64,000 bases of DNA, from NCBI GenBank assembly GCA_015233405.1, contig JADFXT010000003.1, forward strand, positions 54,591 to 118,590. Reading direction: 5' to 3'. Within the stretch, counting starts at the first letter, position 1; each line of letters starts with the position of its first letter. Below, piece after piece: positions 3-17,497 of the stretch. The notes beneath the pieces were generated by a model. That model was not told the origin of the DNA, made no database searches, and saw only the letters and a list, made by a program, of their open reading frames with translations. The stretch is from Candidatus Omnitrophota bacterium (GTDB lineage: Bacteria > Omnitrophota > Gorgyraeia > Zapsychrales > Zapsychraceae). The position numbers and the translations under genes were made by a program.

Positions 3-1577
3 TTACTTAACTTGTCTACCGAATCCCACGCGAACACTATTTTGATTTTGTTGCGTATTATACATCCCCTGTGTTGCCACAGGTTGTGTATTCTGTGCCA
101 TGGGTCCGTCGATAATCTGATGGCAATTGGAACAAACACCGCGGTATCCATGTGTCATGCCAGCATTGCTTGAAATCGGCGGTGCCTGTACGGGCATTTG
201 AGCAGCGACAGGCGCCATGGGATTATTTCCTTGATTATAAAAATTCGGCTGATTATTTTGATTTTGGTAATACGCACCACCGCGCGCCATGATCTGTCCG
301 CAATTAGGACAACGCGGAAATTCATTTGCCCCTTGTTGCGCGTACATTCTCCAATTGCAATTCGGGCAGAGGAAGAATCCCGTCGATTCCGGACCATTCC
401 AAAAATTAGGTTGGTTCGTCATTTGGTTCATCTGCGGTCTAACCTGGTTCATATTGGCAGCCTGTTGCCCGCCTTCTGACCACCAATTGATTGGTCCTTT
501 GTTCGACATATCTTTAGCCATAGGCGAGCCACAGTTCGGGCACGTCGGATAATTATTGCCTTGCATTGTTCCTTTCATTCGCCAATTGCAATTCGGGCAA
601 ACAAAAACTTGCTGTCCCCATCCAAAAGCAACTTGAGTGCCAGTATTCATTTGTCCCATGGTATCCGGGTCCGGCATAGCCACACCTTGCACCATAGCGC
701 CTTGCATATATCCCGGCATTGGGCAAGCTTGACCCATTTGATTCATTCCCATTCCACCTTGCATAAAGCCCTGTCGAGTAGGTAAAGGACACGTCGGAAC
801 TGCCATCGTATTCATGTCCGGCATACCAAATCCAGCGCCCTGCGCGGTTTGCTGCATCATACGAATACGGCAATTGGGACAAACAGGACAAACACCTGCG
901 GAATTCTGACCGGCCATAATATACTTACAACGAGGACAAAAATAATTGCAAAAAACCCCGCCTTGTCCGGGGCCAAAACCTGCCTGCATATTAGCTTGTG
1001 CATTGACAGGAGAAACCGGTCCGGCCATAACAGGTTGAGAAATCACATTCGTGGACGTCGGGGCTTGAGGCATCCGTGCTTGCCGATAAAGACTGATGGC
1101 CTTTCTTGAAGTTCCTGCATATCCGCCAAACACACGTATGCCAAACTGCATCAGGATATTATAACTTTGCTGGTCGATATTGTTGACGATGACAGCCTCT
1201 TCTCCTTTGCCAGCAACTAAATACGCGATCTGGGGATTGGGCACCGTGCCACGATAAGGATTTTGAACCGCCTGAACAAGTTTCTGCGATAACGGATTCA
1301 CGACCAGAAAATATTTGGACTCTTGCAAAGACGGCGACACTTTAGCGCTCAAAGACGGGCCATCGGCCGCGATAACGATTTTTCCACAGGCCGGATTTCC
1401 CGCATTCTGGTTCTGAGTCTCAGGAGCAAACAGCGCGTAAACTCCAACGATCAAGACAAGAAATATCGAACCAAAAATAAAATAAACATTCAGGTCGACA
1501 TCTTTGAGCCGCGCCAGGAGATCCTCAAACGGATTATCTTGGGCTTTAGTGTTTTTTGCTTTCAAATTTTTTTCCAT
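3..1577 (-). CDS. membrane-anchored NifX/NifB-C-like domain protein with zinc-ribbon array, M/Q/N/G/P-rich low-complexity region and C-terminal magnetochrome-type CXXCH
   Basis: 524-codon ORF, TAA at 3-5. N-terminal TM helix (VYFIFGSIFLVLIVGVYALF). Residues ~65-165 resemble the dinitrogenase FeMo-cofactor-binding (NifX/NifB-C) fold (KIVIAADG..YFLVVNP..AVIVNNIDQQSYNILMQFGIRVF). Three CPxC..CPxC ribbons (FCPRCKYIM..CPVCPNCRIRM; VCPNCNWRM..CPNCGSPM; LCPNCNWRM..CPNCGQIM). C-terminal HGYRGVCSNCHQI. Confidence 0.8.
   Translation of the reverse strand: MEKNLKAKNTKAQDNPFEDLLARLKDVDLNVYFIFGSIFLVLIVGVYALFAPETQNQNAGNPACGKIVIAADGPSLSAKVSPSLQESKYFLVVNPLSQKLVQAVQNPYRGTVPNPQIAYLVAGKGEEAVIVNNIDQQSYNILMQFGIRVFGGYAGTSRKAISLYRQARMPQAPTSTNVISQPVMAGPVSPVNAQANMQAGFGPGQGGVFCNYFCPRCKYIMAGQNSAGVCPVCPNCRIRMMQQTAQGAGFGMPDMNTMAVPTCPLPTRQGFMQGGMGMNQMGQACPMPGYMQGAMVQGVAMPDPDTMGQMNTGTQVAFGWGQQVFVCPNCNWRMKGTMQGNNYPTCPNCGSPMAKDMSNKGPINWWSEGGQQAANMNQVRPQMNQMTNQPNFWNGPESTGFFLCPNCNWRMYAQQGANEFPRCPNCGQIMARGGAYYQNQNNQPNFYNQGNNPMAPVAAQMPVQAPPISSNAGMTHGYRGVCSNCHQIIDGPMAQNTQPVATQGMYNTQQNQNSVRVGFGRQVK
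111..152 (-). other. magnetochrome-type heme-c binding motif (H-G-Y-R-G-V-C-S-N-C-H-Q-I-I)
   Basis: CXXCH preceded by H-x-Y-R-G, the same pattern as the two motifs in the 13838-14680 product. It matches the magnetochrome signature known from MamP/MamE/MamT. Confidence 0.7.
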
Positions 1578-1607: not shown

Positions 1608-2213
1608 TTAGAATCCTTGATTTGGATTATTGCCTTTATAAATCGGACCATATTGAAACGCTGGCCCAAAAACCGGTGAACCCATTTGCCACGTTCCTTT
1701 ATTCGGACCCATCAAAGGGCCGTATTGATATTCAAAGGGAATCGTTAAATACATCTTTTGTCCATCCCTATAAATGTCGAGGAGAATCCCATCAGTATAT
1801 TTAACATTGTTCGCTATATTAACAAAAGCTTTCGCCGTAGGAACCGGTTTACGCCCTATAGAAACAATGACATCGCCCGTCTTAACACCATATTTAAGAG
1901 CAAGATCTTTCCCTTCATCTAAAACAAACATACCCTTGATCTTCCCGGGGATATTAAATTCTTTACGGATACTGCGCGTCAATTGAATGACCCTCATGCC
2001 GATCCAGGTCATGCTATCGCCGGGTTCAACAATCGCACCATTCGCCGCCACGCGTTCTGCAGGCTCTGGAAAAATCTCGAGCGAAGAAACAAGCCAGCAA
2101 ATCACAATAATAGAGAAGATGACAATTCCGGCAGAAAGTACAGGCTCTTTGCGAACGAATGCTATGGTTCGTTTTTTTATTTCTTCAAACTTTTTTTCAT
2201 TTTTTGTTTTCAT
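1608..2213 (-). CDS. TM-anchored single-PDZ-domain protein
   Basis: N-terminal TM (VLSAGIVIFSIIVICWLV) followed by a PDZ-like segment (WIGMRVIQLTRSIRKEFNIPGKIKGMFVLDEGKDLALKYGVKTGDVIVSIGRKPV). Sits between the protease gene and the CXXCH protein gene. Confidence 0.75.
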   Translation of the reverse strand: MKTKNEKKFEEIKKRTIAFVRKEPVLSAGIVIFSIIVICWLVSSLEIFPEPAERVAANGAIVEPGDSMTWIGMRVIQLTRSIRKEFNIPGKIKGMFVLDEGKDLALKYGVKTGDVIVSIGRKPVPTAKAFVNIANNVKYTDGILLDIYRDGQKMYLTIPFEYQYGPLMGPNKGTWQMGSPVFGPAFQYGPIYKGNNPNQGF

Positions 2214-2217
2214 AGGC

Positions 2218-3639
2218 TCACTGTAGTTTCACTAAAATTTCATCGGTTTTTCCGTTTCTTAAAATATGGACATTCACGCTGTCCCCTGAGCGAAAATGCG
2301 CAACGACTTTTCTGATATCATCAGCCGATTGAATGACCACACCGGCAATAGCCGTGACAATGTCCCCTCTTTGAATCCCGGCAAACCTCGCCGGAGATTC
2401 ATCCATCACACGATTGACCAAAACACCTTGGCCAACAGATATCCCAAATTGTTTAGCAATAACATCATTAATAGGCATGACCTCTAATCCAAAACGTATC
2501 GGAACCGGCGCATCTGTTGTCGTTTTAGGTAAAGCCGCGGCCAACAAACCTTTTTGGTTAACTGGTACAGAAAAATTTCGTTTAAGCGCCTGAGCAAGAA
2601 AATCCTTGCAGTCATTGATAGGAATAGCAAATCCCGTTCCGCTAAAAACTCCGGTTGGCGCATAGATAGCCGTATTAATCGCGATGACTTCTCCGTTTAA
2701 ATTGACCAACGGCCCGCCGGAGGAACCACGGTTAATGGGCGCATCGGTTTGAAAAAGATTTTCATAGCGAATGCCTTCGATCAAAACAGATTTTCGAATG
2801 CCGCTTAAAATCCCGCTTGTTACCGTTTGTTCTATGCCAAACGGACTTCCGACAGCGACGACATAATCGCCGATCTGGCTAAAGCTCGAATCCGCCAAAG
2901 CCACCTCTGGAAATGGGCCATCCGCTCGTAATTTAAGAACAGCTAAATCCAAATTAGGTTCCTGGGCCACAAGATCCGCTTTAATATCACGCGACGGATT
3001 GCCAAAAACGGTCACGACGATATCGGTCGCATCTTTGGTCACGTGGTAATTTGTTAAAACATATCCGCGCTCATCCACGAAAATTCCGGCGCCGACATTT
3101 TCATATCCTTTGTTTTCGATAAATTTATCAATGGTCCCGTCGAACGGCGGGGCAAATTGAAGGTTCTGGGCGTCAATGGTCGGACGAACAGGCGTGCGAA
3201 CAACCCGTCGGGCGTGGATATCGCAGACCGAAGGGATAATAACATTGACCGCATCTTTTAATGAATTCTGGAATTTGCTGTCCGTGTTCGCGACAAGCTG
3301 CATACCGCCGTTAGGTGTGGCCTTGGTAATAGCTGCGACGGAATAATTAGAGGTGTTCCGCTGATTCGCCACGAGCTGCATACCACCGTTTGGTGTGGCC
3401 TTGGTAATAGCGGCTGGTGTGGCCATTCCTGCCTGAACGACCGGACTAGGGAACTTCGGCTCGCCGACATTAGATGGATTAACCGGATTCTTAGCACCGC
3501 CATTCTCAGCCTCAATGCTATTCGTGATATCTTCCCGTCTCATCACGACCCAAAAAAGGAGCATGACCGAGATAATGACTACACCGACTATCCATGGGCC
3601 CAGCGGCTTACGACAAAATAGATCGTTTGAATCTTCCAT
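2218..3639 (-). CDS. TM-anchored trypsin-like serine protease with C-terminal PDZ (HtrA/DegP family; MamE-like, lacking CXXCH)
   Basis: Catalytic triad contexts are intact: TNYHVTKDA (His), DLAVLKL (Asp), GSSGGPLVN (Ser). One PDZ (GVLVNRVMDESPARFAGIQRGDIVTAIAG). N-terminal TM (WIVGVVIISVMLLFWVV). Confidence 0.9.
   Translation of the reverse strand: MEDSNDLFCRKPLGPWIVGVVIISVMLLFWVVMRREDITNSIEAENGGAKNPVNPSNVGEPKFPSPVVQAGMATPAAITKATPNGGMQLVANQRNTSNYSVAAITKATPNGGMQLVANTDSKFQNSLKDAVNVIIPSVCDIHARRVVRTPVRPTIDAQNLQFAPPFDGTIDKFIENKGYENVGAGIFVDERGYVLTNYHVTKDATDIVVTVFGNPSRDIKADLVAQEPNLDLAVLKLRADGPFPEVALADSSFSQIGDYVVAVGSPFGIEQTVTSGILSGIRKSVLIEGIRYENLFQTDAPINRGSSGGPLVNLNGEVIAINTAIYAPTGVFSGTGFAIPINDCKDFLAQALKRNFSVPVNQKGLLAAALPKTTTDAPVPIRFGLEVMPINDVIAKQFGISVGQGVLVNRVMDESPARFAGIQRGDIVTAIAGVVIQSADDIRKVVAHFRSGDSVNVHILRNGKTDEILVKLQ
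3286..3414 (-). repeat. in-frame 78-nt tandem duplication inside the protease gene (AAITKATPNGGMQLVAN x2)
   Basis: DNA segments starting near 3290 and 3368 are nearly identical (gctgcataccRccgttWggtgtggccttggtaatagc). The protein repeat has a 26-aa period. Confidence 0.85.
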
Positions 3640-3661: not shown

Positions 3662-3886
3662 TTAAAAAGCAAACTTATCCCCAGCTACAGGAGTATCCAC
3701 TCCGGTGCTTGGAAAAGCAGCCGGCATTGCAGCTTTGTTTACCGTGGTTGGAACATGGTGCAATTGATGGTGCCGGGTCTTTCCCTTAAATCTAAAGAAG
3801 ACGGCAGCAGAGATCAATGTACAGACACCTAGAATAATTAAAAAACCAAACCACGGATTAAGACACTTTTCTTTATTTCCAATCAT
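3662..3886 (-). CDS. small single-TM membrane protein, unknown function
   Basis: 74-aa ORF with a TM helix (WFGFLIILGVCTLISAAVFF) and a His-rich stretch (TRHHQLHH). GAGG lies upstream of the ATG. Tightly packed between the MamI-like and protease genes. Confidence 0.5.
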   Translation of the reverse strand: MIGNKEKCLNPWFGFLIILGVCTLISAAVFFRFKGKTRHHQLHHVPTTVNKAAMPAAFPSTGVDTPVAGDKFAF

Positions 3887-3905: not shown

Positions 3906-4076
3906 TTATTTTTTACCTTTTGTGAGTTTAAGCCCTGTGTTAAGAGCGATCAGCCCGCCGATAAGAAGCGCAAGCGGAACAGATCCACGTAAAAAATCGC
4001 CGAAATTATCCCACCAACCGAAAATCCCGACAACTCCTAAAAGAGCTGCAATTGCTCCTCCAATAACATGTGCCAT
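3906..4076 (-). CDS. MamI-like small two-TM membrane protein (56 aa; below ORF-track cutoff)
   Basis: Hand translation: MAHVIGGAIAALLGVVGIFGWWDNFGDFLRGSVPLALLIGGLIALNTGLKLTKGKK. AAGGAGA lies 6 nt upstream of the ATG at 4076. The G..G...WW....FLRG.VP...L..GGL.AL pattern recalls MamI. Position immediately upstream of the protease mirrors the mamI-mamE order. Confidence 0.55.
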   Translation of the reverse strand: MAHVIGGAIAALLGVVGIFGWWDNFGDFLRGSVPLALLIGGLIALNTGLKLTKGKK

Positions 4077-4102: not shown

Positions 4103-4387
4103 CTAACCGTTTATAAATGTTACCCCGAATCCTCCTCGAGGATTTTCCCAAACAATTGCGCCATCTGTACAAACCACCCGGCAGCTTCCGCACTCAAGAC
4201 AATTTTCATATGAGGCTTCAATGGCGCCGCTTTTCTCTTCGTAGGTCTTCGCCGGACAAACAACAAGACACATCTTGTGCTCGCAGTGCTTACAAACTTT
4301 CTTGTTGATCTTGATATGGCTCGCTGCATCTTTCTTGGTCTTGACCAAAAAAAGCTTGTCATCTAAAGAAAGTTTTCCGGTTTTCAT
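4103..4387 (-). CDS. fixX: ferredoxin-like protein FixX
   Basis: 94 aa. CPAKTYEE...YENCLECGSCRVVC...WENPRGGFGVTF aligns closely with E. coli FixX/YdiT. ATGA overlap with fixC. Confidence 0.85.
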   Translation of the reverse strand: MKTGKLSLDDKLFLVKTKKDAASHIKINKKVCKHCEHKMCLVVCPAKTYEEKSGAIEASYENCLECGSCRVVCTDGAIVWENPRGGFGVTFING

Positions 4388-5697
4388 ATTAAATTACTCC
4401 ACGCGCCCCACATATCGGACGCGACACGGGTCAATTTCACGTTTTTCATGACACGATTAAAAATCTCTTTTTTAACAACGCTTTTGGGCTTTTCGGACAC
4501 ACGGAAATAATCCACCAGAATATCATTCATCAAAGTCGGATAATCGTTGATAAGGGATTTATGTTTATGCAAGAACGACAGAAAATTTTTGCAATTTTTT
4601 AAATCCTGCATGACGAAACTCGCCTTAAGTTTTTCTTCATATTGCGACAGCGCCTCAGCGGTAAAATCGTTCTTCTCCTTCGCCTCGATAATCGTTTCCG
4701 CAGCAGAAAGGCCGGAGGACATCGCCAAATTGACACCTTCATGGAAAAACGACGTATTTAAAAGTCCTGCTGCATCGCCGACGACCAATAGCCCATCCCG
4801 GTAAAGCTTAGGAAGATAATCAAACCCGTCAGACGGGATCATATGCGCCATATATTCGGTGGTTTCTCCTCCGCGCACTAAAGGGGCGATGACCGGATGG
4901 CTCTTAAAATCATCGAGAATATCATTCGGATTCTTTGCATTCTCACTTTTCATAAAATCGCTTAAAGAAAATCCAACGCCAACGGATAAACTGTCTTGGT
5001 TCGTATAAATAAATCCATTTCCCAAAAGCCCTTGGACGGAGGCACCAAAATATTCATAGGCCGCGCCTTGACGGTCCGTTAAGCCGAACCGGTCTTCAAT
5101 AACGCTTCGAGGCAGACGGATGTTTTCCTTGACCGCGATGGAACGACGGCCTGGACTAATTTTCTTACGAAGCCTTGCCTTTTCCGATAACAATGAATTC
5201 GCGCCTTCTGCACAGACAATCACATCAGCCAATAAGCTATCTTCATCTCCACCGCTTGTAATACCGACGACTTTTCCGTTTTCATAAAGAAAATCTCGTA
5301 CGCAGTAATTCGTGATAATGCTCGCGCCAGCCTCTTCTGCCTTCTTGGCCAACCATTGGTCCATCGAGCCACGCCGTGCCAGAAAGGAATGATTATACGG
5401 TGCAACGTTAAATGCCGCAGGCGTTAAATCAAACGCCATTTCGTTTTCATTCGCTAAAAGAGCAAATTTTCTTTTCCCGACGTAACGTTCCCACGGCGCG
5501 TTATCTAAGAAATCTGGGAAAAGTTTTTCCATGATGCTTGAGAAAAATATCCCTCCAAACACATTCTTCGCGCCAGGATATTCGCCGCGCTCAATAACGA
5601 CGACCTCTATCCCGCGTTTAGCCAGAGCATACGCACACGTCAATCCCGAAGGCCCTGCGCCGACAATAATAACTTCCATTTTATCAGTTTGATTCAT
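4384..5697 (-). CDS. fixC: FAD-dependent electron-transfer-flavoprotein:quinone oxidoreductase FixC
   Basis: 437 aa. VIIVGAGPSGL dinucleotide fold. Long colinear similarity to E. coli FixC (GAKNV.GG; LPRSVIEDRF.L...QGAA; GGGF/NGFIYTN; FK.HP..APL; VGDAAG). Confidence 0.9.
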   Translation of the reverse strand: MNQTDKMEVIIVGAGPSGLTCAYALAKRGIEVVVIERGEYPGAKNVFGGIFFSSIMEKLFPDFLDNAPWERYVGKRKFALLANENEMAFDLTPAAFNVAPYNHSFLARRGSMDQWLAKKAEEAGASIITNYCVRDFLYENGKVVGITSGGDEDSLLADVIVCAEGANSLLSEKARLRKKISPGRRSIAVKENIRLPRSVIEDRFGLTDRQGAAYEYFGASVQGLLGNGFIYTNQDSLSVGVGFSLSDFMKSENAKNPNDILDDFKSHPVIAPLVRGGETTEYMAHMIPSDGFDYLPKLYRDGLLVVGDAAGLLNTSFFHEGVNLAMSSGLSAAETIIEAKEKNDFTAEALSQYEEKLKASFVMQDLKNCKNFLSFLHKHKSLINDYPTLMNDILVDYFRVSEKPKSVVKKEIFNRVMKNVKLTRVASDMWGAWSNLI

Positions 5698-6115
5698 GAG
5701 AAAAATTCTCTAACTTGCCCGTTTGTTTGTTTATTTGTTTGTTTGGGAAAAACTTATCTCTGATGAGCGCCGCATACTTTCCGGAAACATATAAACCTTT
5801 TTTCAACGTCTCTGCAATATTCGTTCGACTGCGCCGCAAAATATGAGCGCGGGATTTTGTCGCCGTTTTTAAATGAATAGCCTCATGAACTGGCTCTTTA
5901 TCGTGAAGATTTGCTTCAGTATGATTATTTGATTTTATTTTCTTGAGGAGGTCTAGAACAGCTTCTCGGGGGATACGCTGATGCCCGCCTAATGTAGTGA
6001 CCGCTTTAAGCTTTCCTTGCTTGACCCAACTTAAGACGGTAAAACGGGTAACATGAAGAAGCTCTGCAGCTTGCGACGTTGTTAAAAAATTATGTGAGGA
6101 GGTTGGAGTGTGCAT
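5684..6115 (-). CDS. excisionase/MerR-superfamily helix-turn-helix DNA-binding protein
   Basis: N-terminal LTTSQAAELLHVTRFTVLSWVKQGKLKAVTTLGGHQRIPREAV (HTH_17-like). Paralogous to the N-terminus of the 17494-17952 product. First gene after a sigma70-like promoter. Confidence 0.8.
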   Translation of the reverse strand: MHTPTSSHNFLTTSQAAELLHVTRFTVLSWVKQGKLKAVTTLGGHQRIPREAVLDLLKKIKSNNHTEANLHDKEPVHEAIHLKTATKSRAHILRRSRTNIAETLKKGLYVSGKYAALIRDKFFPNKQINKQTGKLENFSHESN

Positions 6116-6150
6116 TTATTGTTGAAATAAAGATTAATAAAAGTGTTTGG

Positions 6151-6179
6151 ATTATAGGCAATCAACCAAAAAAAGTCAA
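6151..6179 (-). promoter_or_regulatory. sigma70-type promoter (TTGACT-17 nt-TATAAT) for the HTH-fixCX-mamI-like operon
   Basis: Minus strand reads ttgact ttttttggttgattgcc tataat. The -10 element lies ~36 nt upstream of the ATG at 6115. Confidence 0.5.
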
Positions 6180-6293
6180 TAAAAAATATTCGACCGGATT
6201 TTTTATAAAAGAGTGTTGAAAATGTTGAATGATTTCTTACATTTTCTCGTCTGGAAAGGCTTTTCTCGGCAAGAAAAATAAAAAAAGCCTAAA

Positions 6294-7313
6294 TTAATGA
6301 AACCCTGGTGTTTTGTACTGAACAATTTCACCATTTTTGCTTTCAATAACCAGGACTTCAACGCGCTTTAAAGCATGCGCTAAACGCAAGCCTTTTTCAC
6401 CACCTAAAACAGAAATAGCCGTTGATAATTCATTGGCCGCTTGGGTCGTATTGGCTACAACGGTGACACTTACGGCCCCTTTTTGAGGGTAACCGCTAAC
6501 AGGATCTATGATATGCGAGAACGCTTCAGAACCGATAGTATAGAATTTTTCATAATTGCCGGAAGTTGATATGCCCCTATCACTTAGAACTGTGGTGCAA
6601 TATAATTTCTCCTTGTTAAAAGGGTCCTGAACCCCTATGATCCAAGGTTTTTTCCCCTGATCTTTTCCTCTGCAAAATATCTCACCTCCGCCATCAACCA
6701 GAAAATGTTTGATCCTGTTTTTATCAAGTATTTTTGCAAGTTCATCGCAAACGAATCCTGAAGCAGGAGAACCAAGATCCACTTTCATTCCCGGTTTTTT
6801 AAAAGAAATAAAATCCGGAGCCTTAAGGCATAAATTCCGATAACCAACTTTATCTTTTGTTTTTTCTAATAAATCTTTATCCGGAAGTTTTCCTTGATCC
6901 GCAGATTTTTTCCATAATTCTACAAGCGGCAATGCAGTGATGTCATATGCGCCATTTGTCAGTTTAGAATATTCAATGGATTCTTTGATCACTTTAAACA
7001 CATCAGCCGTAACGCGCACCCCTTGAAATCCATCCGCATTTAATCTGCTTAGATCCCCTTCCATATTTTTTGAATGCGCATTCATGTGCAATTGAACTTC
7101 CTCAACTTTTTTCCAGCATTGATTAATAACCGATATAACATTTATCTTTGGGTCATAAAAAAAATGAATGCGCACATAAGCCCCTAAATAAGGCCTTGTT
7201 TCATCGTAATCCAAAAGTTTTTGTTTCTTAAAAGACGATCGAATTAGAAAGAAGAATGCACCGAGGATGATTAACAAAAAAATGTTGAGAATGTTGATAT
7301 GATTTGGGTTCAC
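6294..7313 (-). CDS. apbE: ApbE-family FAD:protein FMN transferase with N-terminal signal anchor
   Basis: 339 aa, ApbE-like throughout (YDITALPLVELW; DLGSPASGFVCDELAKIL; GGGEIFCRG; ISTSGNYEKF; HIIDPVSGYP). N-terminal TM (ILNIFLLIILGAFFFLI). Confidence 0.85.
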   Translation of the reverse strand: MNPNHINILNIFLLIILGAFFFLIRSSFKKQKLLDYDETRPYLGAYVRIHFFYDPKINVISVINQCWKKVEEVQLHMNAHSKNMEGDLSRLNADGFQGVRVTADVFKVIKESIEYSKLTNGAYDITALPLVELWKKSADQGKLPDKDLLEKTKDKVGYRNLCLKAPDFISFKKPGMKVDLGSPASGFVCDELAKILDKNRIKHFLVDGGGEIFCRGKDQGKKPWIIGVQDPFNKEKLYCTTVLSDRGISTSGNYEKFYTIGSEAFSHIIDPVSGYPQKGAVSVTVVANTTQAANELSTAISVLGGEKGLRLAHALKRVEVLVIESKNGEIVQYKTPGFH

Positions 7314-7347
7314 GATAGATTATTGAACGAGATTAGAGAACTCGTAA

Positions 7348-8130
7348 CTATAGAAACCTGAGGTATTTACGGCAAAGCCCAGTGAGAAACAGTGGAATAA
7401 TAAAAATACCAACAAATTCTTCTAGAATAGCAACAATTTTGTTGAATCCGATTGGAATTATGTCTCCATAACCAATGTGCGTGAAGGTAATTAAGCTAAA
7501 ATAAATGGATTCAAATAAATTCGGTTTGTGAGCAACCGAACTAACAAGAAAATGGCCCTGGGTATACAATAAAGCGGTCAATAAAATTAATGAACAGGCA
7601 AAAATAACTGTTCGCTGCGGGCGCTCTCCGTGGCCCCATAGGATGGAAGATATCGATAATAAAACCCAAGAGATAAAAAGCTTCATCCGTCCTTTAAGAT
7701 CAAATCCTTGATGATTCTTTCCGACATGATGAAGTCGTTTGGCATAAAATAAATGCGGCATCAGAGACTTTCGATAACATTCTTTGGAAAGAAAAAAGCA
7801 TTCTGAAAAACTGACATATTCCAGGTCGCGCTCATAACAAATCCCTGCATTTTTGTAAAGAATGCTCGCGTATTCATAATCGCCGGAGATGACCGCTTCT
7901 TCAGCGGCTTTTTCATAATACATCGACGCATAATAGAACAATGTCTGCCTGCCGCCTTGAAATTCACAGCAGCTCGCCGCGGAAGTAAAACAGATTGTTG
8001 CTTGTTTATGCTGTCCCTGGCTTTGATAAGACATGGCCGCTTGCAAAAAAAGCTTCGAAGCTTCCTCATATTTTTGAGCTTCAAAAAGCTTCTGCGCTTC
8101 TTGTTCTATATTTTTAATATCGTCGGCCAT
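7348..8130 (-). CDS. two-TM K+-channel-like protein with N-terminal TPR/SNAP-like helical-repeat domain
   Basis: Selectivity-filter-like SLITFTHIGYGD between two TM helices. The N-terminal ~115 aa are helical repeats (AQKYEEASKLFLQAAMSY..YYEKAAEEA..ASILYKNAGICY). The start overlaps the STAS stop (TAATG). Confidence 0.75.
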   Translation of the reverse strand: MADDIKNIEQEAQKLFEAQKYEEASKLFLQAAMSYQSQGQHKQATICFTSAASCCEFQGGRQTLFYYASMYYEKAAEEAVISGDYEYASILYKNAGICYERDLEYVSFSECFFLSKECYRKSLMPHLFYAKRLHHVGKNHQGFDLKGRMKLFISWVLLSISSILWGHGERPQRTVIFACSLILLTALLYTQGHFLVSSVAHKPNLFESIYFSLITFTHIGYGDIIPIGFNKIVAILEEFVGIFIIPLFLTGLCRKYLRFL

Positions 8131-8468
8131 TATGTTCCTAAATCTTTCATTGCCATTTCCCGATGTTCATAAATCGGGATCAATTTGTGGATCTTTGTGA
8201 TTTCAAACAGCCCCTTTACGTCTTTATTAACATTACAGATCGCCAGTTTTCCGCCGGATTTCTTAAGCATTTGCATCATTTCTATGAGTGTCGCAAGCCC
8301 GGCGCTGCAGACAAACGTCACCTTTTCAAAATCAACCAGGACTTTGGTCGAGCCTTCTTTCAACATTTTTAGAAATGATTCGCGTAGCGCGATGGAGTTG
8401 TCCACGCTCAATTCCCCATCCATGGTCACTACAGTAATGCCGCTTATTTTCTCAACCAGTATTTTCAT
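8130..8468 (-). CDS. STAS-domain anti-sigma-factor antagonist (SpoIIAA/RsbV-like)
   Basis: 112 aa, typical STAS layout (LVDFEKVTFVCSAGLATLIEM) with a candidate phospho-Ser. Confidence 0.85.
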   Translation of the reverse strand: MKILVEKISGITVVTMDGELSVDNSIALRESFLKMLKEGSTKVLVDFEKVTFVCSAGLATLIEMMQMLKKSGGKLAICNVNKDVKGLFEITKIHKLIPIYEHREMAMKDLGT

Positions 8469-8480
8469 TTTCAGCCTCCC

Positions 8481-8882
8481 TTATTGCTTCAAAAATTTAG
8501 TCATCTTTATTGTCCGGCCCTCATTGGCGAACTCTAATTTATCCATGACATTTTTTATAAGAAATATCCCTCTGCCGCTTAACTTTTCTAAATTTTCCGT
8601 TTTGACAGGGTCAGGAATCTTTTGATAATCAAAGCCTTTGCCTTGATCCGTCACTTGAATGGTTAGTTGATTCTCGTCAGATGTAATCTCAACCTGCACC
8701 GATAAACGCGGGTCCATTTTATTGCCATGTTTAACGGCATTGACAATCGCTTCATATAACACGAGCTTAATATTAAAAATAGTGCTTTGGTCCAAAGCCA
8801 ATGGAGACAGTTTCTCCAGAATTGAAGAAACAAATCCGTTTATAGGCGCAACTTGCGAAGGTATGGTCTCAAATATATGCAT
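8481..8882 (-). CDS. anti-sigma regulatory factor / Ser-Thr kinase (RsbW/SpoIIAB-like, HATPase_c)
   Basis: 133 aa with EAIVNAVKHGN (N-box), DQGKGFD (G1) and GRGIFLIKNVMD (G2). Confidence 0.85.
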   Translation of the reverse strand: MHIFETIPSQVAPINGFVSSILEKLSPLALDQSTIFNIKLVLYEAIVNAVKHGNKMDPRLSVQVEITSDENQLTIQVTDQGKGFDYQKIPDPVKTENLEKLSGRGIFLIKNVMDKLEFANEGRTIKMTKFLKQ

Positions 8883-8943
8883 AAAGGTTGCAGTAAATTA
8901 TCAAAAAAACTCCGACGCGTCAAATAAAAATATCCCTTACCCT

Positions 8944-10887
8944 TTAAATAATCTTAACAACAATAAAAGTGATATCATCCGACTGCTTATGTTGCGGCTC
9001 AAATTTCCGGACATCTTTTTCAATCGAGGACAACAATCCTCTTGCGGGGAAATTCCGGTCTTTTTCAATTGTAGAAATCAGCCGTTCCTTGCCATACATT
9101 TGGCCCTTGGCGTTTCTCGCTTCTGTGATCCCGTCGGTATAAAAAACAAAAATGTCGCCGGAAGAAAATGCGATCTGTCCGCCGGAGTAAGTGCTTTCGA
9201 GCATCCCTAAGGGGTATCCGTCTTCCACATCCAAAGCTTTAGCGGAAGCGCCCTTGGGCAAATATAAAACCGGCAGATGCCCGCCGTTGGCGTACGTCAT
9301 GATCTTTTTATCCATGTCGAATATGGAATAATAAAGCGTGACAAATAATCCTGTCGGAGAGTCCTGGGTTAATTTTAAGTTTAAATTGTGAAGCGCCTCA
9401 TGCGGCTTGGTTTCGGACAAAGCGAAAAATTTAAACGCGCCCGAAACCGTGGTCATAAAAAGGCTGGCCGGCATGCCTTTTCCGGAAACGTCGCCGATCA
9501 TGACGCCAAGCCGTTTAGGGCTGAATTCATAAAAATCATACAAATCCCCGCCGACCTCACGGGCCGTATACATGATGGCGGCGATATCAAGCCCGGCGGT
9601 CATAGGAAGCGTTTTAGGAAGGAAACTCTCCTGGATCTTCTTGGCAATTTTCATTTCATTCTCGACGAGGATTTTCTTCTTCCACTCGCGGATGGAGATC
9701 ATCAGCGTTGAAAGCAAATAAAGCGCCACCAACGCAAAGAACGGATAAAACATATCCACCCAAATTCCGAATAAAATGAACAATAAAATCGCCAAGACGC
9801 TATAGGAAAAAATCGTGCCGGCTAATATCAAAAAACTCTTAAATGGCTTGGTGGCAAATACGCCCCAGACGATCAACGCGCCTAATAAAAACAAAATGAC
9901 CTGGTTGGTTTGCTTTGAGGCGCGGACGATAAATTGTTTATTCAATATAGAATTAATAATGTCGCTGTGCACCGCAAGCGCCGGATAAAGCGCGGAGAAC
10001 GGGTTAGGATGCAGGTCTGCCGTGCCGGCGGCGGTGAGTCCTACAATGCAAATTTTGTCCTTAAAAACATTTAAATCCAGCGTCGGCTTTTCTCCTTTTT
10101 TTAAAGAAACATAAGACTGCAAAATATCCACAAAAGAATAATGTTTATAATATCTGCCCCAATCGCCGGCATAATTCACGATCACATTTGAATTTTCATC
10201 CACCGGGATCCGCATCTTGCGGCCCAATTGAATATAGCGACCAGGATAAAGCTTTAGATCTTTAGCAGATAACCCCAAATAAGCAGAGATTAAACGAAGC
10301 GAAAGATATGGATGAAGCGTGTTTCCATATTCAACCAAAAGCGGAACGCGCCGATATTTTCCGTCGGGGTCTGGGATGACATTAATATGCCCGATACCTG
10401 CAGCCACTTGCCTGAAATTTTCTAACGTTTGGGCCGTATAACCCTTTGCCTCGATGACCTTTTGTTTTGGCGTATTGTCCAGATCAAAAACATATGGCAA
10501 ATAAACATTACCCGTGGTCTTGATCGCCTGTTCCAATTCTGGGTCGCCATTGCCTTTCTCCGAGAAGAAAATATCCATCAAAACGGCTTTGGCGCCATAT
10601 TCAGACAAAGCCTTGATCAAAACAGCATGATACCCTCTGTCAAAAGGGAATCGCCCTAATTTGGCGATAGAATCTTCACCAATTTCAACAATTACAACTT
10701 TATCAGATGTGAATACGAACGGACGGAGATGAAAACGAAAGTCTAATGCGCCAAGCTCACTATTTTCAAAAATGCGAGCATGGGAACCGCACAAAAGAAT
10801 GGCAGCAAAGGCGAGAAAGATAAGGACCAACAAAACGTTTTGAAACGCAACGGCCAGCAAATCAAGAATTTTTTTCAGATTGACCAT
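8944..10887 (-). CDS. CHASE2 sensor domain / PP2C (SpoIIE-type) serine phosphatase
   Basis: 647 aa. N-terminal TM plus CHASE2-like region (VVIVEIGEDSIAKLGRFPFDRGYHAVLIKAL..DIFFSE). Three to four TM helices. C-terminal SpoIIE/PP2C region (IQESFLP, GGDLYDF, GDVSGKGMPASLFM, YTDGITEA). Confidence 0.9.
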   Translation of the reverse strand: MVNLKKILDLLAVAFQNVLLVLIFLAFAAILLCGSHARIFENSELGALDFRFHLRPFVFTSDKVVIVEIGEDSIAKLGRFPFDRGYHAVLIKALSEYGAKAVLMDIFFSEKGNGDPELEQAIKTTGNVYLPYVFDLDNTPKQKVIEAKGYTAQTLENFRQVAAGIGHINVIPDPDGKYRRVPLLVEYGNTLHPYLSLRLISAYLGLSAKDLKLYPGRYIQLGRKMRIPVDENSNVIVNYAGDWGRYYKHYSFVDILQSYVSLKKGEKPTLDLNVFKDKICIVGLTAAGTADLHPNPFSALYPALAVHSDIINSILNKQFIVRASKQTNQVILFLLGALIVWGVFATKPFKSFLILAGTIFSYSVLAILLFILFGIWVDMFYPFFALVALYLLSTLMISIREWKKKILVENEMKIAKKIQESFLPKTLPMTAGLDIAAIMYTAREVGGDLYDFYEFSPKRLGVMIGDVSGKGMPASLFMTTVSGAFKFFALSETKPHEALHNLNLKLTQDSPTGLFVTLYYSIFDMDKKIMTYANGGHLPVLYLPKGASAKALDVEDGYPLGMLESTYSGGQIAFSSGDIFVFYTDGITEARNAKGQMYGKERLISTIEKDRNFPARGLLSSIEKDVRKFEPQHKQSDDITFIVVKII

Positions 10888-13835: not shown

Positions 13836-13837
13836 CG

Positions 13838-14680
13838 TTATCCCTGGATTACATGGCACTTAGAACAAATCCCTCGATATTCATGCGGCGCCTGCGCATT
13901 TGCCGGTATCGCTGGGACATTAGGGGTCATAATCACATGACAATTTTCACAGACGCCGCGAAATTCATGCATCATAATTGCATCACGCAAAATGGCCGGC
14001 GCCTTTGTTTGTCCCGGGATTGGCTTCGTTAAAGCAACCGTCCGCGCTCCAGGGAATACACATCCATTTCTGCCCGTATACGCAATCTGCTGGCCAGCAC
14101 CGCCCGTCGTGGCAGGAGGAAAACATTGGGTAACCGTCGGACATGTCATACAACCCGGCGGAATATACGCCGCTTGTTGACCGGCCTGCGCCTGCCACTG
14201 ATTAAAAATTTGCGTTCCCGTTGGACAATTGGGTTGAAAGGCTATTTGTTGTCCACCACCCGTTGCCGGAGGAAAACATTGGGCAACATTGGGACACACC
14301 GCACAATTCGGTGGAACATACGCAGCCTGTTGTGCAGCGCCTGTTCCTTGAGGAAAACATTGTGTGACCGTTGGGCACGTCATACAACCCGGCGGAATAT
14401 ACGCCACTTGCTGCGGCATGGACTGCCACTGATTAAAGTCTTGAGCAGCGGTTGGATAATTCTGCTGAAACGCGACCTGCTGAGAGCCTCCCGTGGCAAT
14501 AATCCCTTGCTGGGCAGGATCTTGAACGGGCACCGGTTTGGGCCGCATATTAAAAAGCGCAAAGCAGAAAAATGACGTGAGCCCGACGACAGTAAGCCCT
14601 ATCATCCATAAACTTTTGGCATTGATATTCGCGCAGGAATCGTCTGCGAAAAATATCTCTTCTTTTTTATCGTTCTTCAT
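13838..14680 (-). CDS. TM-anchored double-magnetochrome (2x CXXCH) protein with Q-rich CxxC..C repeat region
   Basis: 280 aa. N-terminal TM (LWMIGLTVVGLTSFFCFALF). Repeats of PPGCMTCPTVTQCFP type. C-terminal MHEFRGVCENCHVI and PHEYRGICSKCHVI. Confidence 0.85.
   Translation of the reverse strand: MKNDKKEEIFFADDSCANINAKSLWMIGLTVVGLTSFFCFALFNMRPKPVPVQDPAQQGIIATGGSQQVAFQQNYPTAAQDFNQWQSMPQQVAYIPPGCMTCPTVTQCFPQGTGAAQQAAYVPPNCAVCPNVAQCFPPATGGGQQIAFQPNCPTGTQIFNQWQAQAGQQAAYIPPGCMTCPTVTQCFPPATTGGAGQQIAYTGRNGCVFPGARTVALTKPIPGQTKAPAILRDAIMMHEFRGVCENCHVIMTPNVPAIPANAQAPHEYRGICSKCHVIQG
13841..13972 (-). other. two tandem magnetochrome-type heme-c motifs
   Basis: H-E-F-R-G-V-C-E-N-C-H and P-H-E-Y-R-G-I-C-S-K-C-H, about 28 residues apart. 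Confidence 0.75.
14078..14482 (-). repeat. in-frame ~234-nt (78-aa) super-repeat inside the double-CXXCH gene
   Basis: QQVAFQQNYPTAAQDFNQWQ..QQVAYIPPGCMTCPTVTQCFP versus QQIAFQPNCPTGTQIFNQWQ..QQAAYIPPGCMTCPTVTQCFP. DNA blocks near 14117-14180 and 14351-14414 are nearly identical. Confidence 0.8.
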
Positions 14681-14774
14681 GAAAAACCCCTTTCATTTTA
14701 ATCCCTCCGTCCCCCTTATACTGATGGGGGAGGTTATATATTGTCACAATCCAAGGAACACAATTGTTTTGCCT

Positions 14775-14897
14775 GTCATCCTCAACTTCCTCGATGTTGT
14801 ATCTAGAAATGATTGGGGATCCATTAAATGCTTTTAGGTCCTAAGCCCCTACAGGAGGACACCTTCTGGATCCCCGCCTAAAGATTGCGGGGATGAC
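14775..14897. repeat. palindromic MITE/REP-like element, subfamily A (123 bp, left arm degenerate)
   Basis: Starts gtcatcctc, contains the core ggggatccattaaatgcttttaggtcc, and ends ggatccccgcctaaagattgcggggatgac. The right arm is nearly identical to that of 36178-36283. Confidence 0.8.
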
Positions 14898-14989
14898 AGA
14901 AAAAGATCAAGGATAAGACCTATAATTTTCATCATTTCCACAAAAACGGGAATCCACTCTTTAAAAAATAAAAATCATATAACCAGACA

Positions 14990-16281: not shown

Positions 16282-16284
16282 CCG

Positions 16285-16419: not shown

Positions 16420-16439
16420 AATCAAACATCCTTCCAGAT

Positions 16440-16790: not shown

Positions 16791-16792
16791 GC

Positions 16793-17497
16793 TTACAACA
16801 CCTTCACTTTGGGTTTTACAGCGGCACTATTAAGCGGCGCAGTCACGGCGGTTACCTCATGCATAACGCCACCACACTTAGGGCATTGCGTGGGAACAAT
16901 AGCTCCGGCACTTTTTTCCGAAACGCGGTAACTGCAATCAAAGCACATATAATATTTTCCCTGGACTATCCGCCCGACGTTGGCTTGGGCATCAAAGGAG
17001 TTACAGGCCACCGGCGTTTTACTTCCGGTAATGCCGAAATGCGACGGAACGTTTTGTTCGGTAAGTTTGGTCAGGCCGTCGGGAAAATCATTGAGCGCCT
17101 GCCACACGGTCCCTTTTAAATCCGTATAAACTTCAATACGCGCCTGGCTAAAAACTCTAAAAGGTTCAAATCCAACATTGTTGCCGAGAACAGCGTCGAC
17201 GTTTAAACCCGCGATCATTTGAGCGGAACGTAACCCAGCGGCATGCTGGGCGTCCATAAATTTATTCGGTACGGCCTTATACGTTCTTTTGGCACGGTCA
17301 CAGATAATATAAAACGGCGCCCTGCCGAACAGGTAGGAAACCGGGCTTGAAATGTCTTTCCCCGTCGATGCGATCGCGATGATCACGGCCTTTTTACCGG
17401 TCAAAACCAATGGATTATTCTTTTCATAAAGCGCGCGCCCAATGACAAGGCCGACCGCCACAATCAAAACGATGAGGAATATCGTTTCTTTTTTCAT
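16793..17497 (-). CDS. membrane-anchored NifX/NifB-C-like domain protein with C-terminal zinc ribbon
   Basis: 234 aa. N-terminal TM. Good NifX-family pattern (AVIIAIASTGKDISSPVSYLFGRAPFYIICD...GLNVDAVLGNNVGFEPFRVFSQARIEVY). C-terminal CFDCSYRV...CPKCGGVM. Confidence 0.8.
   Translation of the reverse strand: MKKETIFLIVLIVAVGLVIGRALYEKNNPLVLTGKKAVIIAIASTGKDISSPVSYLFGRAPFYIICDRAKRTYKAVPNKFMDAQHAAGLRSAQMIAGLNVDAVLGNNVGFEPFRVFSQARIEVYTDLKGTVWQALNDFPDGLTKLTEQNVPSHFGITGSKTPVACNSFDAQANVGRIVQGKYYMCFDCSYRVSEKSAGAIVPTQCPKCGGVMHEVTAVTAPLNSAAVKPKVKVL

What the first reader, a model, noticed from the sequence alone, without database searches (positions are those of the whole stretch)
3..1577. Unusual architecture: TM anchor, NifX-like domain, three Cys4 zinc ribbons in Met/Gln/Asn-rich low complexity, then magnetochrome
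Seen: one uninterrupted 524-codon ORF combines several elements.
- An N-in type TM anchor.
- A domain with the NifX/NifB-C (FeMo-cofactor-binding family) pattern.
- About 300 residues dominated by M, Q, N, G and P, e.g. MQGGMGMNQMGQACPMPGYMQGAMVQGVAMPDPDTMGQMN.
- Three regularly spaced CPNCNWRM...CPNCG-type ribbons inside that region.
- A terminal HGYRGVCSNCH heme-c motif.
Established: c-type heme attachment occurs outside the cytoplasm, so the whole C-terminal part should be periplasmic or lumenal. NifX-family domains bind Fe-S/metal clusters.
Inference: a lumenal metal/cluster-handling or crystal-interacting protein wired to a heme. I know of no described Mam/Mad protein with this domain combination. 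The Met-rich low-complexity region could be a metal-binding or mineral-interface region.
Basis: partly seen in the sequence, partly recalled or inferred. Interest (0 to 1): 0.8.

Follow-up and report, generated by a model that had tools for sequence, protein, structure and literature searches.

The report
Omnitrophota magnetosome NifX-ribbon-magnetochrome protein
This is a real, conserved gene of the magnet-crystal (magnetosome) gene cluster of uncultured Omnitrophota bacteria; it encodes a membrane-anchored protein that joins a NifX-like domain, cysteine "ribbons" and one heme site, a new arrangement of parts already known from magnetosome proteins of other bacteria.

Summary
A complete 524-codon ORF lies on the minus strand (3-1577). 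It has one N-in TM anchor, a NifX/MTH1175-like domain (aa 60-171), three Cys4 ribbons in a Q/N/G/P/M-rich uncharged linker, and one C-terminal magnetochrome.

It is not a frameshift artefact. About 64 homologues share the architecture, nearly all from Ca. Omnitrophota magnetotactic MAGs. All 20 genome loci found show the order mamI - small ORF - mamE - PDZ protein - this gene - small ORF(s) - mamP.

A magnetochrome plus NifX/NifB combination is published for FmpB of Desulfovibrio magneticus RS-1. In a search of 1.8 billion proteins, the nearest relatives of this NifX-like domain are FmpA-like (PDZ-NifX-Cys ribbon) and FmpB-like (MCR-PDZ-NifX) proteins. The one FmpA-like and one FmpB-like protein whose contigs I read both sit in magnetosome gene clusters.

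This protein lacks a PDZ domain, has the reverse domain order, and carries its own "CPNCNWRM" ribbon type. I found no paper describing it.

Best reading: a lumen-facing redox or iron-handling component acting with MamE, the PDZ protein and MamP. The metal in the ribbons and the ligand of the NifX-like domain are unknown. Verdict: new variant of a known kind, of moderate interest.

The parts
3..1577 (-). Complete gene, 524 aa (stop codon at 3-5): TM - NifX-like - three Cys ribbons in a Q/N/G/P/M-rich linker - magnetochrome
1488..1577 (-). aa 1-30, cytoplasmic N-terminus (6 K/R; predicted helix 16-26; D28 and N30 nearly invariant in the family)
1422..1487 (-). aa 31-52, single TM helix or signal anchor; no twin-arginine motif
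1065..1400 (-). aa 60-171, NifX/MTH1175-like domain (PF02579). Clade-specific invariant E126, E127, Y119, P95, D135; C64 at its N-terminal edge
870..950 (-). aa 210-236, ribbon 1, Cys-rich variant (C210, C214, C217, C230, C233, C236)
   Evidence: (pLDDT about 90)
600..869 (-). aa 237-326, Met/Gln/Gly-rich disordered linker with two CP[LM]P motifs (C263, C285) and the QVAFGWGQQ lead-in to ribbon 2
   Evidence: (pLDDT below 50)
531..599 (-). aa 327-349, ribbon 2: CPNCNWRM-x11-CPNCG
300..368 (-). aa 404-426, ribbon 3: CPNCNWRM-x11-CPNCG
105..182 (-). aa 466-491, single magnetochrome (PPISSNAGMTH476GYRGVC482SNC485H486QII)
6..104 (-). aa 492-524, Q/N-rich tail ending in the conserved ..RVGFG..K element, which resembles the start of a further ribbon repeat
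1608..2213 (-). Upstream neighbour: 201-aa TM + PDZ-only protein with a weak partial match to the MamP model (its PDZ part) and no heme motif. It precedes the target in 19 of the 20 loci
2218..3639 (-). MamE-like trypsin + PDZ protease
3662..3886 (-). Conserved 74-aa small TM protein between mamI and mamE
3906..4076 (-). MamI
   Evidence: (NF040963, E=2.3e-12)
16793..17497 (-). Paralogue: 234-aa TM - NifX-like - one Cys4 ribbon, no heme motif; collinear with aa 37-248 of the target
13838..14680 (-). Related design: 280-aa TM protein with QQxA[FY]/Cys-Pro repeats and two C-terminal magnetochromes

Best explanation
The gene encodes a core, lineage-specific magnetosome protein of magnetotactic Ca. 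Omnitrophota.

Topology (inferred): it is inserted by Sec/YidC with its short N-terminus in the cytoplasm. Everything after the TM helix faces the magnetosome lumen or periplasm.

Heme (shown by motif and profile only; attachment inferred): the C-terminal magnetochrome receives one covalently bound c-type heme on that side.

Proposed function (inferred): it works with the co-encoded MamE protease, the PDZ-only protein and MamP as part of the redox/iron-handling machinery that sets the Fe(II)/Fe(III) balance and feeds the growing magnetite crystal.
- The heme, held on a long flexible uncharged tether, exchanges electrons with iron or with MamP.
- The membrane-proximal NifX-like domain binds a small inorganic iron species or docks a partner.
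- The Cys4 ribbons are folded metal-binding beads along the tether. They hold either structural Zn or rubredoxin-type Fe.

It is the Omnitrophota rearrangement of a domain toolkit (NifX-like, Cys ribbon, magnetochrome, PDZ). In Desulfobacterota that toolkit is packaged as FmpA and FmpB. Loss of their C-terminal parts, including the NifX-like domains, gives fewer, smaller and misshapen crystals.
For: Domains: NifX-like fold; MCR above the Pfam cut-off; the only two His are at the axial-ligand positions; ribbons; the pLDDT blocks covering them are mostly 74-90; 130 instances in 65 proteins, 97 of them with identical CxxC-x15-CxxC spacing.

Family and context:
- 64 homologues were found, most from Omnitrophota MAGs.
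- 18 of 20 genome loci are Omnitrophota.
- The core order mamI-mamE-PDZ-target-sm91-mamP recurs in 19 of the 20 loci (sm74 is undetected in one). The twentieth, a 3.4-kb contig, lacks a PDZ hit and ends before sm91/mamP.
- CcsA and heme-synthesis genes follow mamP in several loci.

Shared toolkit:
- The best non-family matches to the NifX-like profile among 1.84 billion representatives are TM-PDZx2-NifXx2-4 proteins with Cys ribbons and MCRx2-4-PDZ-NifXx2 proteins.
- One of each was confirmed inside a magnetosome gene cluster.
- The ribbon profile aligns with the FmpA-like ribbon profile at 92.8 % hhalign probability.
- The window holds a second TM-NifX-ribbon paralogue.

Function of relatives:
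- RS-1 FmpA and FmpB are enriched on early-stage magnetosomes.
- Alleles predicted to remove their Fe-Mo domains give fewer, smaller and misshapen crystals (PMC12748827; PMC4287615).
- MamP magnetochrome oxidises Fe(II) (title and abstract of PMC11648623, listed).
Against: - There is no experimental data for any member of this family. The organisms are uncultured.
- Topology rests on hydropathy, charge bias and the heme motif. No dedicated predictor was run.
- Ten of the 64 homologues have no CxxCH motif and seven have no Cys4 ribbon, at least one of each group being a truncated record. Neither module is therefore indispensable.
- The NifX-like domain lacks the His/Cys and the Gly-rich loop that would suggest cluster binding, so its ligand is a guess.
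- A single heme cannot by itself form the multi-heme relay seen in MamP.
- Cys4 sites exported unfolded into an oxidising compartment might form disulfides rather than bind metal.
- The hhalign probability for short Cys-rich motifs is inflated by the Cys columns.
Confidence: 0.6

Rival explanations
1. Scaffold or adaptor rather than redox enzyme. The NifX-like domain and the ribbons are protein-protein interaction modules. The conserved C-terminal peptide or the linker is bound or cut by the neighbouring PDZ/protease proteins (MamE, PDZ-only protein, MamP). The Q/N-rich linker forms a lumenal matrix or condensate. The heme only senses redox state.
For: - Three PDZ-containing proteins are encoded next to it in the related loci.
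- The family has a conserved C-terminal element.
- The linkers have a conserved composition that is uncharged, Q/N/G/P/A-rich and predicted disordered.
- The NifX-like domain has lost typical ligand-loop features.
- Heme and ribbons are each dispensable in some members.
Against: - The C-terminus ends in K/R. From my own knowledge, HtrA-type PDZ domains prefer a hydrophobic last residue.
- Magnetochromes studied so far are electron-transfer or iron-oxidising modules.
- No interaction was tested here.
Confidence: 0.2
2. The CPxC pairs are redox-active dithiol/disulfide centres (a thiol-based reductant relay or redox switch in the lumen) rather than metal sites.
For: - CPxC resembles the active-site motifs of thiol-disulfide oxidoreductases (my own knowledge).
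- The location is extracytoplasmic, where Cys pairs usually form disulfides.
- Further lone CP[LM]P cysteines occur in the linkers.
Against: - The spacing is invariant and four-Cys (CxxC-x15-CxxC in 97 of 130 instances). With the beta-hairpin prediction, this is the signature of a metal-binding ribbon/knuckle fold, not of a thioredoxin fold.
- PDB profile hits are all zinc ribbons or zinc fingers, though weak.
Confidence: 0.1
3. Assembly or annotation artefact: a frameshifted fusion of separate genes, or a reversed topology in which the NifX-like domain and ribbons are cytoplasmic and the heme motif is unused.
For: - NifX-family domains and zinc ribbons are normally cytoplasmic (general knowledge).
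- The low-complexity DNA could favour assembly errors.
Against: - The same continuous architecture occurs in about 64 proteins from independent assemblies and sources.
- There is no second TM segment between the ribbons and the MCR.
- The charge bias favours N-in.
- FmpB-like relatives place NifX-like domains after N-terminal MCRs in the same chain. FmpB is reported to have a signal peptide (PMC12748827).
Confidence: 0.02

Closest known systems
FmpB (DMR_41100; earlier annotated MamT / MamP-like) of Desulfovibrio magneticus RS-1, and FmpB-like MCR-PDZ-NifX proteins of Desulfobacterota magnetosome gene clusters
   Same: - It combines magnetochrome and NifX/NifB-like domains in one exported, magnetosome-cluster-encoded protein.
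- FmpB-like proteins are among the nearest relatives of this NifX-like domain in a 1.84-billion-protein search.
- The one FmpB-like protein whose contig I read (P0075) sits in a magnetosome gene cluster.
- It is reported to be enriched on early magnetosomes and needed for normal crystal number, size and shape (PMC4287615, PMC12748827).
   Different: - FmpB-like proteins have 2-4 N-terminal MCRs, a PDZ domain and two C-terminal NifX-like domains, and no Cys4 ribbons.
- The window protein has the reverse order: one N-terminal NifX-like domain and one C-terminal MCR. It has no PDZ, three ribbons and long Q/N/M-rich linkers.
- Its NifX-like domain carries clade-specific invariant residues (E126, E127, Y119, D135) that are absent from FmpB-like copies.
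- I did not align the RS-1 sequence itself. The link to FmpB rests on the published architecture.
FmpA (DMR_41090; MamE-Cter) of RS-1, and FmpA-like TM-PDZx2-NifX-ribbon proteins (e.g. Desulfamplus MBF0240870.1)
   Same: - It is TM-anchored and encoded in a magnetosome gene cluster.
- NifX-like domains are interspersed with Cys-rich ribbons.
- The ribbon profiles align at 92.8 % hhalign probability.
   Different: - FmpA-like proteins are 900-1500 aa with two PDZ domains, 2-4 NifX-like domains and no heme motif.
- Their ribbons are a CxCPxC-x5-H-x5-C-x4-CPxCG type with 6 Cys plus His. The window protein's ribbons are CPNCNWRM-x11-CPNCG.
MamP (PDZ + two magnetochromes)
   Same: It has a magnetochrome heme module, a TM anchor and a lumenal location, and is encoded in the same operon-like gene string.
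   Different: - The window protein has no PDZ and only one MCR.
- A separate bona fide MamP (PDZ + 2 MCR, 396 aa in L001) is encoded two or three genes downstream in 19 of the 20 related loci. This gene is therefore not the MamP orthologue.
- The NCBIfam MamP score is 19.7 bits against a 300-bit cut-off.
NifX / NafY / NifB C-terminal domain and stand-alone MTH1175-like proteins (Pfam PF02579), including the orange protein ORP
   Same: It has the same fold, and profile-level homology (1eo1 E=2.6e-16; Foldseek 1rdu, 1o13, 2wfb; NifX 9ian and NafY 1p90 more weakly).
   Different: - It is extracytoplasmic and membrane-anchored rather than cytoplasmic.
- It has no nif-gene context.
- It lacks the Gly-rich loop, and no His is available as a ligand.

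Membership tests
Magnetochrome (MCR, PF18509) | Score above the Pfam gathering threshold | tested here: met
   31.7 bits against 30.4, E=1.1e-7, aa 466-491
Magnetochrome (MCR, PF18509) | CXXCH plus a distal His about 10 residues upstream (xH-x3-G-x-C-x2-CH) | tested here: met
   H476-GYRGV-C482-SN-C485-H486. These are the only two His in the protein. The motif is conserved in most homologues
Magnetochrome (MCR, PF18509) | Covalent heme attachment and an extracytoplasmic location | not testable with these tools
   Inferred from the single N-in TM anchor and from ccsA near mamP in related loci
NifX/NafY/NifB-C superfamily (PF02579, Nitro_FeMo-Co) | Sequence-profile match | tested here: met
   The single sequence scores 26.1 bits, just below the 26.3 cut-off. 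The family profile hits MTH1175 at E=2.6e-16 and five further family structures
NifX/NafY/NifB-C superfamily (PF02579, Nitro_FeMo-Co) | Fold | tested here: met
   AF2 pLDDT about 83-98 over aa 61-170. Foldseek: 1rdu E=8.7e-8, 1o13 TMt 0.82, 2wfb TMt 0.76
NifX sensu stricto (FeMo-co precursor carrier) | nif gene context, cytoplasmic location, His/Cys cluster ligands | tested here: not met
   It lies in a magnetosome gene cluster and is predicted extracytoplasmic. The domain has no His. The Gly-rich loop is replaced by xQ-PNPQIAY
FmpB / MamP-like (RS-1 type: MCR - PDZ - NifX) | N-terminal magnetochromes followed by a PDZ domain | tested here: not met
   There is no PDZ hit at E up to 1. The single MCR is C-terminal
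FmpB / MamP-like (RS-1 type: MCR - PDZ - NifX) | NifX-like domain related to those of magnetosome proteins | tested here: met
   The top non-family hits of the NifX-like profile are FmpA-like and FmpB-like proteins. One of each was read on its contig and lies in a magnetosome gene cluster
MamP | PDZ domain plus two magnetochromes; NCBIfam NF040965 cut-off | tested here: not met
   19.7 bits against a 300-bit cut-off. A separate MamP gene is present in related loci
Cys4 zinc ribbon / rubredoxin-like knuckle module | Two CxxC knuckles 15 residues apart on a beta-hairpin | tested here: met
   130 instances in the family; the CxxC-x15-CxxC span is 23 residues in 97 of them. AF2 strands with pLDDT about 80-90. 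Only sub-threshold matches to named Pfam/PDB ribbon families
Cys4 zinc ribbon / rubredoxin-like knuckle module | Identity of the bound metal (Zn or Fe) | not testable with these tools
   The only leads are a weak nigerythrin rubredoxin-domain match (E=4.5e-4 for the whole protein, no significant stretch) and rubredoxin 2pvx at E=0.24 for the FmpA-like ribbon

The most novel reading that the evidence does not exclude
The three Cys4 'ribbons' are not zinc sites. They are rubredoxin-type Fe(Cys)4 centres that load themselves with iron in the iron-rich magnetosome lumen. Strung on flexible Q/N/M-rich tethers between a membrane-proximal NifX-like iron-species-binding domain and a distal heme, they would form an extracytoplasmic, bead-on-a-string electron relay. 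I know of no described lumenal or periplasmic redox protein of this kind. It would couple iron delivery to Fe(II)/Fe(III) control during bullet-shaped magnetite growth. By extension, the NifX-plus-ribbon toolkit shared with FmpA-like proteins would be an ancestral iron-handling device of deep-branching magnetotactic bacteria.
Probability: 0.12. Interest if true: 0.8.

Novelty: new variant of a known kind. Interest (0 to 1): 0.55.

Why it matters
Magnetosome formation has been dissected mainly in Alphaproteobacteria and only recently in Desulfovibrio magneticus RS-1. Nothing is known mechanistically for Omnitrophota, whose clusters were called distinct from those of other phyla (PMC5955933).

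This analysis points to three things:
- An undescribed, syntenically fixed component of the Omnitrophota cluster.
- A link between that component and the genetically validated FmpA/FmpB proteins, through a shared magnetosome-type NifX-like domain and shared Cys ribbons.
- Exported NifX-like and Cys-ribbon modules as a recurrent, unexplained feature of bullet-crystal-forming magnetotactic bacteria.

The soluble part could be expressed heterologously. That makes it a tractable entry point to the question of what NifX-like domains do outside nitrogen fixation and outside the cytoplasm.

Tried and rejected
- Frameshift or fusion artefact: rejected, because the architecture is conserved in about 64 homologues.
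- Orthology with MamP or MamT: rejected. NCBIfam scores are far below the cut-offs, and a separate mamP lies downstream in related loci.
- Assigning the ribbon to a named zinc-ribbon or rubredoxin family: Pfam and PDB profile searches gave only generic sub-threshold knuckle matches.
- Literature search for a name or description of the Omnitrophota protein (magnetochrome+NifX; Omnitrophica/Omnitrophota MGC; iron-molybdenum cofactor+magnetosome; fmpB): only the RS-1 FmpA/FmpB papers were relevant. Kolinko et al. 2016 on Ca. Omnitrophus magneticus did not appear in any search of the library, so I could not check it.
- Retrieving the RS-1 FmpB sequence by name with a second homologue search (query P0075): it returned only unnamed or generically named MCR-PDZ-NifX proteins. 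The FmpB link therefore rests on the published domain description.
- Foldseek against AFDB50: that library was not available.
- Mapping the clade-specific residues onto the model: not possible, because model coordinates are not exposed.
Full report
**1. What is there**

The finding's coordinates hold one complete ORF on the minus strand.
- It runs 3..1577 and encodes 524 aa. It has an ATG start preceded by a GGGG/GGGA Shine-Dalgarno-like stretch, and a TAA stop at 5..3.
- It has a single hydrophobic segment at aa 31-52. The N-terminal 30 residues carry six K/R. The 15 residues after the segment carry one. There is no twin-arginine motif. An N-in signal anchor is the simplest reading.

The domains are as follows.
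- **Magnetochrome.** Pfam finds it at aa 466-491 with 31.7 bits, above the 30.4 cut-off.
- **NifX-like domain.** Pfam Nitro_FeMo-Co scores 26.1 bits at aa 78-165, a hair below its 26.3 cut-off.
  - A profile of the domain from 14 family members matches MTH1175 (1eo1, E=2.6e-16), TM1290, TM1816, PH0822 and the Desulfovibrio orange protein.
  - An AlphaFold2 model built on a 29-sequence alignment has pLDDT of about 83-98 over aa 61-170. Foldseek matches 1rdu, 1t3v, 2wfb and 1o13 with target TM-scores of 0.71-0.82. NifX (9ian) and NafY (1p90) match more weakly.
  - So the NifX-like fold is confirmed. It is closest to the stand-alone MTH1175-type members.
- **Histidines.** The protein has only two, H476 and H486. 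They sit exactly at the two axial-ligand positions of the magnetochrome motif.
- **Ribbons.** There are 19 cysteines and three Cys4 ribbons, at aa 214-236, 327-349 and 404-426. Their pLDDT is about 80-90.
  - The last two are CPNCNWRM-x11-CPNCG.
  - The first is a Cys-richer variant, C210-x3-CPRC-x12-CPVCPNC.
  - Their starts are 113 and 77 residues apart, so 'regularly spaced' is not accurate.
- **Linker.** aa 173-465 is 55.7 % G+Q+N+P+M. It has almost no charge and no His, and it is predicted disordered.

**2. Family and context**

A search of 5.8 billion proteins gave 64 homologues.
- The best is 57 % identical.
- Most come from Ca. Omnitrophica/Omnitrophota MAGs, where NCBI calls them 'magnetochrome domain-containing protein' or 'NifB/NifX family...'.
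- The TM anchor and NifX-like domain are strongly conserved.
- The number of ribbons varies from 0 to 6, and the number of CxxCH motifs from 0 to 2.
- This rules out a frameshift fusion.

A scan of one genome per GTDB species found 20 loci.
- 18 are labelled Omnitrophota and 2 Planctomycetota/Planctomycetales.
- All share the order (ApbE)-HTH-(FixC-FixX)-MamI-small ORF-MamE-PDZ-only protein-this gene-(small ORF)-small Cys/TM ORF-MamP. The core of this order is present in 19 of them. The twentieth is a 3.4-kb contig that lacks a PDZ hit and ends before mamP.
- In several loci, SirC, CcsA, HemA and further heme genes follow.

In the window itself, the same upstream genes are present:
- PDZ protein at 1608-2213
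- MamE at 2218-3639
- small ORF at 3662-3886
- MamI at 3906-4076
- then FixX, FixC, an HTH protein and ApbE

The cluster runs off the left end of the window, so mamP is not visible here. Because a true MamP is encoded separately, this gene is not the mamP orthologue.

**3. Relation to known proteins**

The literature search turned up FmpB of Desulfovibrio magneticus RS-1.
- FmpB (DMR_41100) was first annotated MamT and then MamP-like. It is described as magnetochrome + PDZ + C-terminal NifX/NifB domain.
- The adjacent FmpA (DMR_41090, MamE-Cter) is a related PDZ protein (PMC4287615).
- It also reports that alleles predicted to remove those domains give fewer, smaller and misshapen crystals (PMC12748827).

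An exhaustive HMMER search of 1.84 billion representatives with the NifX-like profile supports the link.
- After the Omnitrophota family itself, one set of best hits is TM-PDZx2-NifXx2-4 proteins of 900-1500 aa with interspersed Cys ribbons. One example is Desulfamplus MBF0240870.1.
- The other set is roughly 500-aa MCRx2-4-PDZ-NifXx2 proteins.
- One of each was located on its contig. Both sit among MamI, MamQ/LemA, CDF (MamB/M) and, for the first, MamE-type trypsin and MamK-like genes.
- Ordinary cytoplasmic NifX-like proteins score lower.

The FmpA-like ribbons are a CxCPxC-x5-H-x5-C-x4-CPxCG type. They align with the Omnitrophota ribbon profile at 92.8 % hhalign probability. This is suggestive only, because Cys columns dominate the alignment.

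The conclusion is that deep-branching magnetotactic bacteria share a toolkit of exported modules: NifX-like domain, Cys ribbon, magnetochrome and PDZ. The window protein is a different packaging of that toolkit. It fails the membership tests for FmpB and MamP, since it has no PDZ and the opposite domain order.

**4. What the sequence says about mechanism**

Column statistics compared four groups of NifX-like domains.
- The Omnitrophota domain has invariant or near-invariant E126, E127, Y119, P95, D135, Y153 and C64. These are not shared with FmpA-like, FmpB-like or cytoplasmic copies.
- The Gly-Ala-Gly loop typical of the family is replaced.
- The domain has no His.
- Together with the absence of a Tat signal, this argues against export of a preassembled Fe-S or FeMo-co-type cluster.
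- Whatever it binds is acquired outside the cytoplasm and is not held as in NafY.

The ribbons are position-specific orthologous modules.
- There are 130 instances in 65 proteins, 97 of them with the same 23-residue span.
- F, CP.CNW, P.CPNC and MA are nearly invariant.
- They have no specific relative in the PDB.
- Whether they hold Zn or Fe cannot be decided computationally.

Across the family the linkers are Q 15.1, G 12.8, A 12.8, N 9.8, P 9.5 and M 5.8 %. D, E, K and H are at 2.3, 1.0, 1.0 and 0.2 %.
- For comparison, other proteins of the window have Q 3.0, N 4.0 and M 2.6 %.
- High Gln/Asn and lack of charge are the conserved traits. The 10.5 % Met of this member is at the upper end.
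- From my own knowledge, this is unlike the acidic magnetite-interacting proteins, so a mineral-binding role for the linker is not supported.
- A 'QVAFG' motif precedes each ribbon and recurs at the C-terminus.

**5. Best explanation and rivals**

I commit to the following reading, at confidence 0.6.
- It is a lumen-facing, membrane-anchored redox/iron-handling component of the Omnitrophota magnetosome.
- It acts with MamE, the PDZ-only protein and MamP.
- The heme is the electron-exchanging end. The NifX-like domain is a binding or docking module. The ribbons are metal-stabilised beads.

Shown: the domains, their conservation, the synteny, and the relation of the NifX-like domain to magnetosome proteins.

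Inferred: the topology, heme loading, and the role in biomineralisation (by analogy with RS-1 FmpA/FmpB and MamP).

The rivals are:
- a scaffold or PDZ-ligand role (0.2)
- CPxC pairs as a dithiol relay (0.1)
- an artefact or reversed topology (0.02)

**6. Novelty**

The kind is known: magnetosome proteins combining magnetochrome with NifX-like domains. The gene is already in public MAG annotations. However, I found no description of this architecture, of the CPNCNWRM ribbon, or of exported Cys ribbons as a shared feature with FmpA-like proteins. I rate it a new variant of a known kind, with interest 0.55.

**7. Seen in passing**

The window holds a second magnetosome-type segment at 12043-17952, minus strand. 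Its genes are an HTH protein, a 234-aa protein, a NapH-like Fer4_5 protein (Mad6-like), a PDZ protein, a 280-aa protein, an unknown 304-aa protein and a CDF transporter.
- The 234-aa protein is a TM-NifX-ribbon paralogue, 26 % identical to and collinear with aa 37-248 of the target. It retains a His in the loop.
- The 280-aa protein is a TM protein with QQxA[FY]/Cys-Pro repeats and two magnetochromes.
- The part of this segment from the NapH-like gene to the CDF gene recurs in the same order in L011. The paralogue recurs in L020.

Noticed in passing
window 16793-17497 (-): A 234-aa paralogue with the layout TM - NifX-like domain (PF02579, E=1.9e-14) - one Cys4 ribbon (CFDC...CPKCG), and no heme motif. 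It is collinear with aa 37-248 of the target (26 % identity, E=1e-10). Unlike the target, it keeps a His in the Gly-rich loop. A 53 %-identical homologue lies at L020 20406-21098.
   Followed up: partly
window 13838-14680 (-): A 280-aa TM protein with four to five 'QQ[VIA]A[FY]..PP.C..CP....QCFP' repeats and two C-terminal magnetochromes. The same QVAF-type motif precedes the ribbons of the target, which suggests a shared repeat design.
   Followed up: partly
window 12043-17952 (-): A second magnetosome-type gene block: HTH_17, the NifX-ribbon paralogue, a NapH-like Fer4_5 protein (Mad6-like), a PDZ protein, the MCR repeat protein, an unknown 304-aa protein and a CDF transporter. The part from the NapH-like gene to the CDF gene occurs in the same order at L011 15-3931.
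   Followed up: partly
window 4103-10887 (-), and L003-L019 upstream of mamI: Non-mam genes conserved next to the Omnitrophota magnetosome cluster: a CHASE2-SpoIIE phosphatase, a K+-channel-like protein, the ApbE flavin transferase, an HTH_17/excisionase-type regulator (weak MamR-like hit), and FixC-FixX (ETF-quinone oxidoreductase-like). Together they might be a dedicated electron-input and regulatory module.
   Followed up: no
L001 13290-21533 (also L003, L005-L008): Directly after mamP come SirC-like, CcsA (cytochrome c assembly), HemA, HemC, HemD/CobA, two radical-SAM/SPASM proteins, HemB and NirDL-like genes. This looks like a siroheme-route heme synthesis and attachment set attached to the magnetosome cluster. 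The window ends before this region.
   Followed up: no
L001 11801-12076 (homologues in 19 of the 20 loci, between the target and mamP): A conserved 91-aa protein with CxxC - TM hairpin - CxxC, i.e. a split zinc-ribbon-like membrane protein. Its function is unknown.
   Followed up: no
C-termini of family members (e.g. P0013, P0022, P0031, P0053): Many homologues end in ...VAF..G.C[VI][IL][RK]-COOH, and others in ..RVG[IF]G..[KR]. This conserved extreme C-terminus resembles the first strand of a ribbon repeat. It might instead be a recognition peptide for the neighbouring PDZ proteins.
   Followed up: partly
P0065-P0091 (FmpA-like proteins, e.g. L022 8001-11789): The large PDZ-NifX proteins of Desulfobacterota magnetosome clusters carry 2-5 copies of a 6-Cys + His module (CxCPxC-x5-H-x5-C-x4-CPxCG). 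I did not find this module mentioned in the papers I read.
   Followed up: partly
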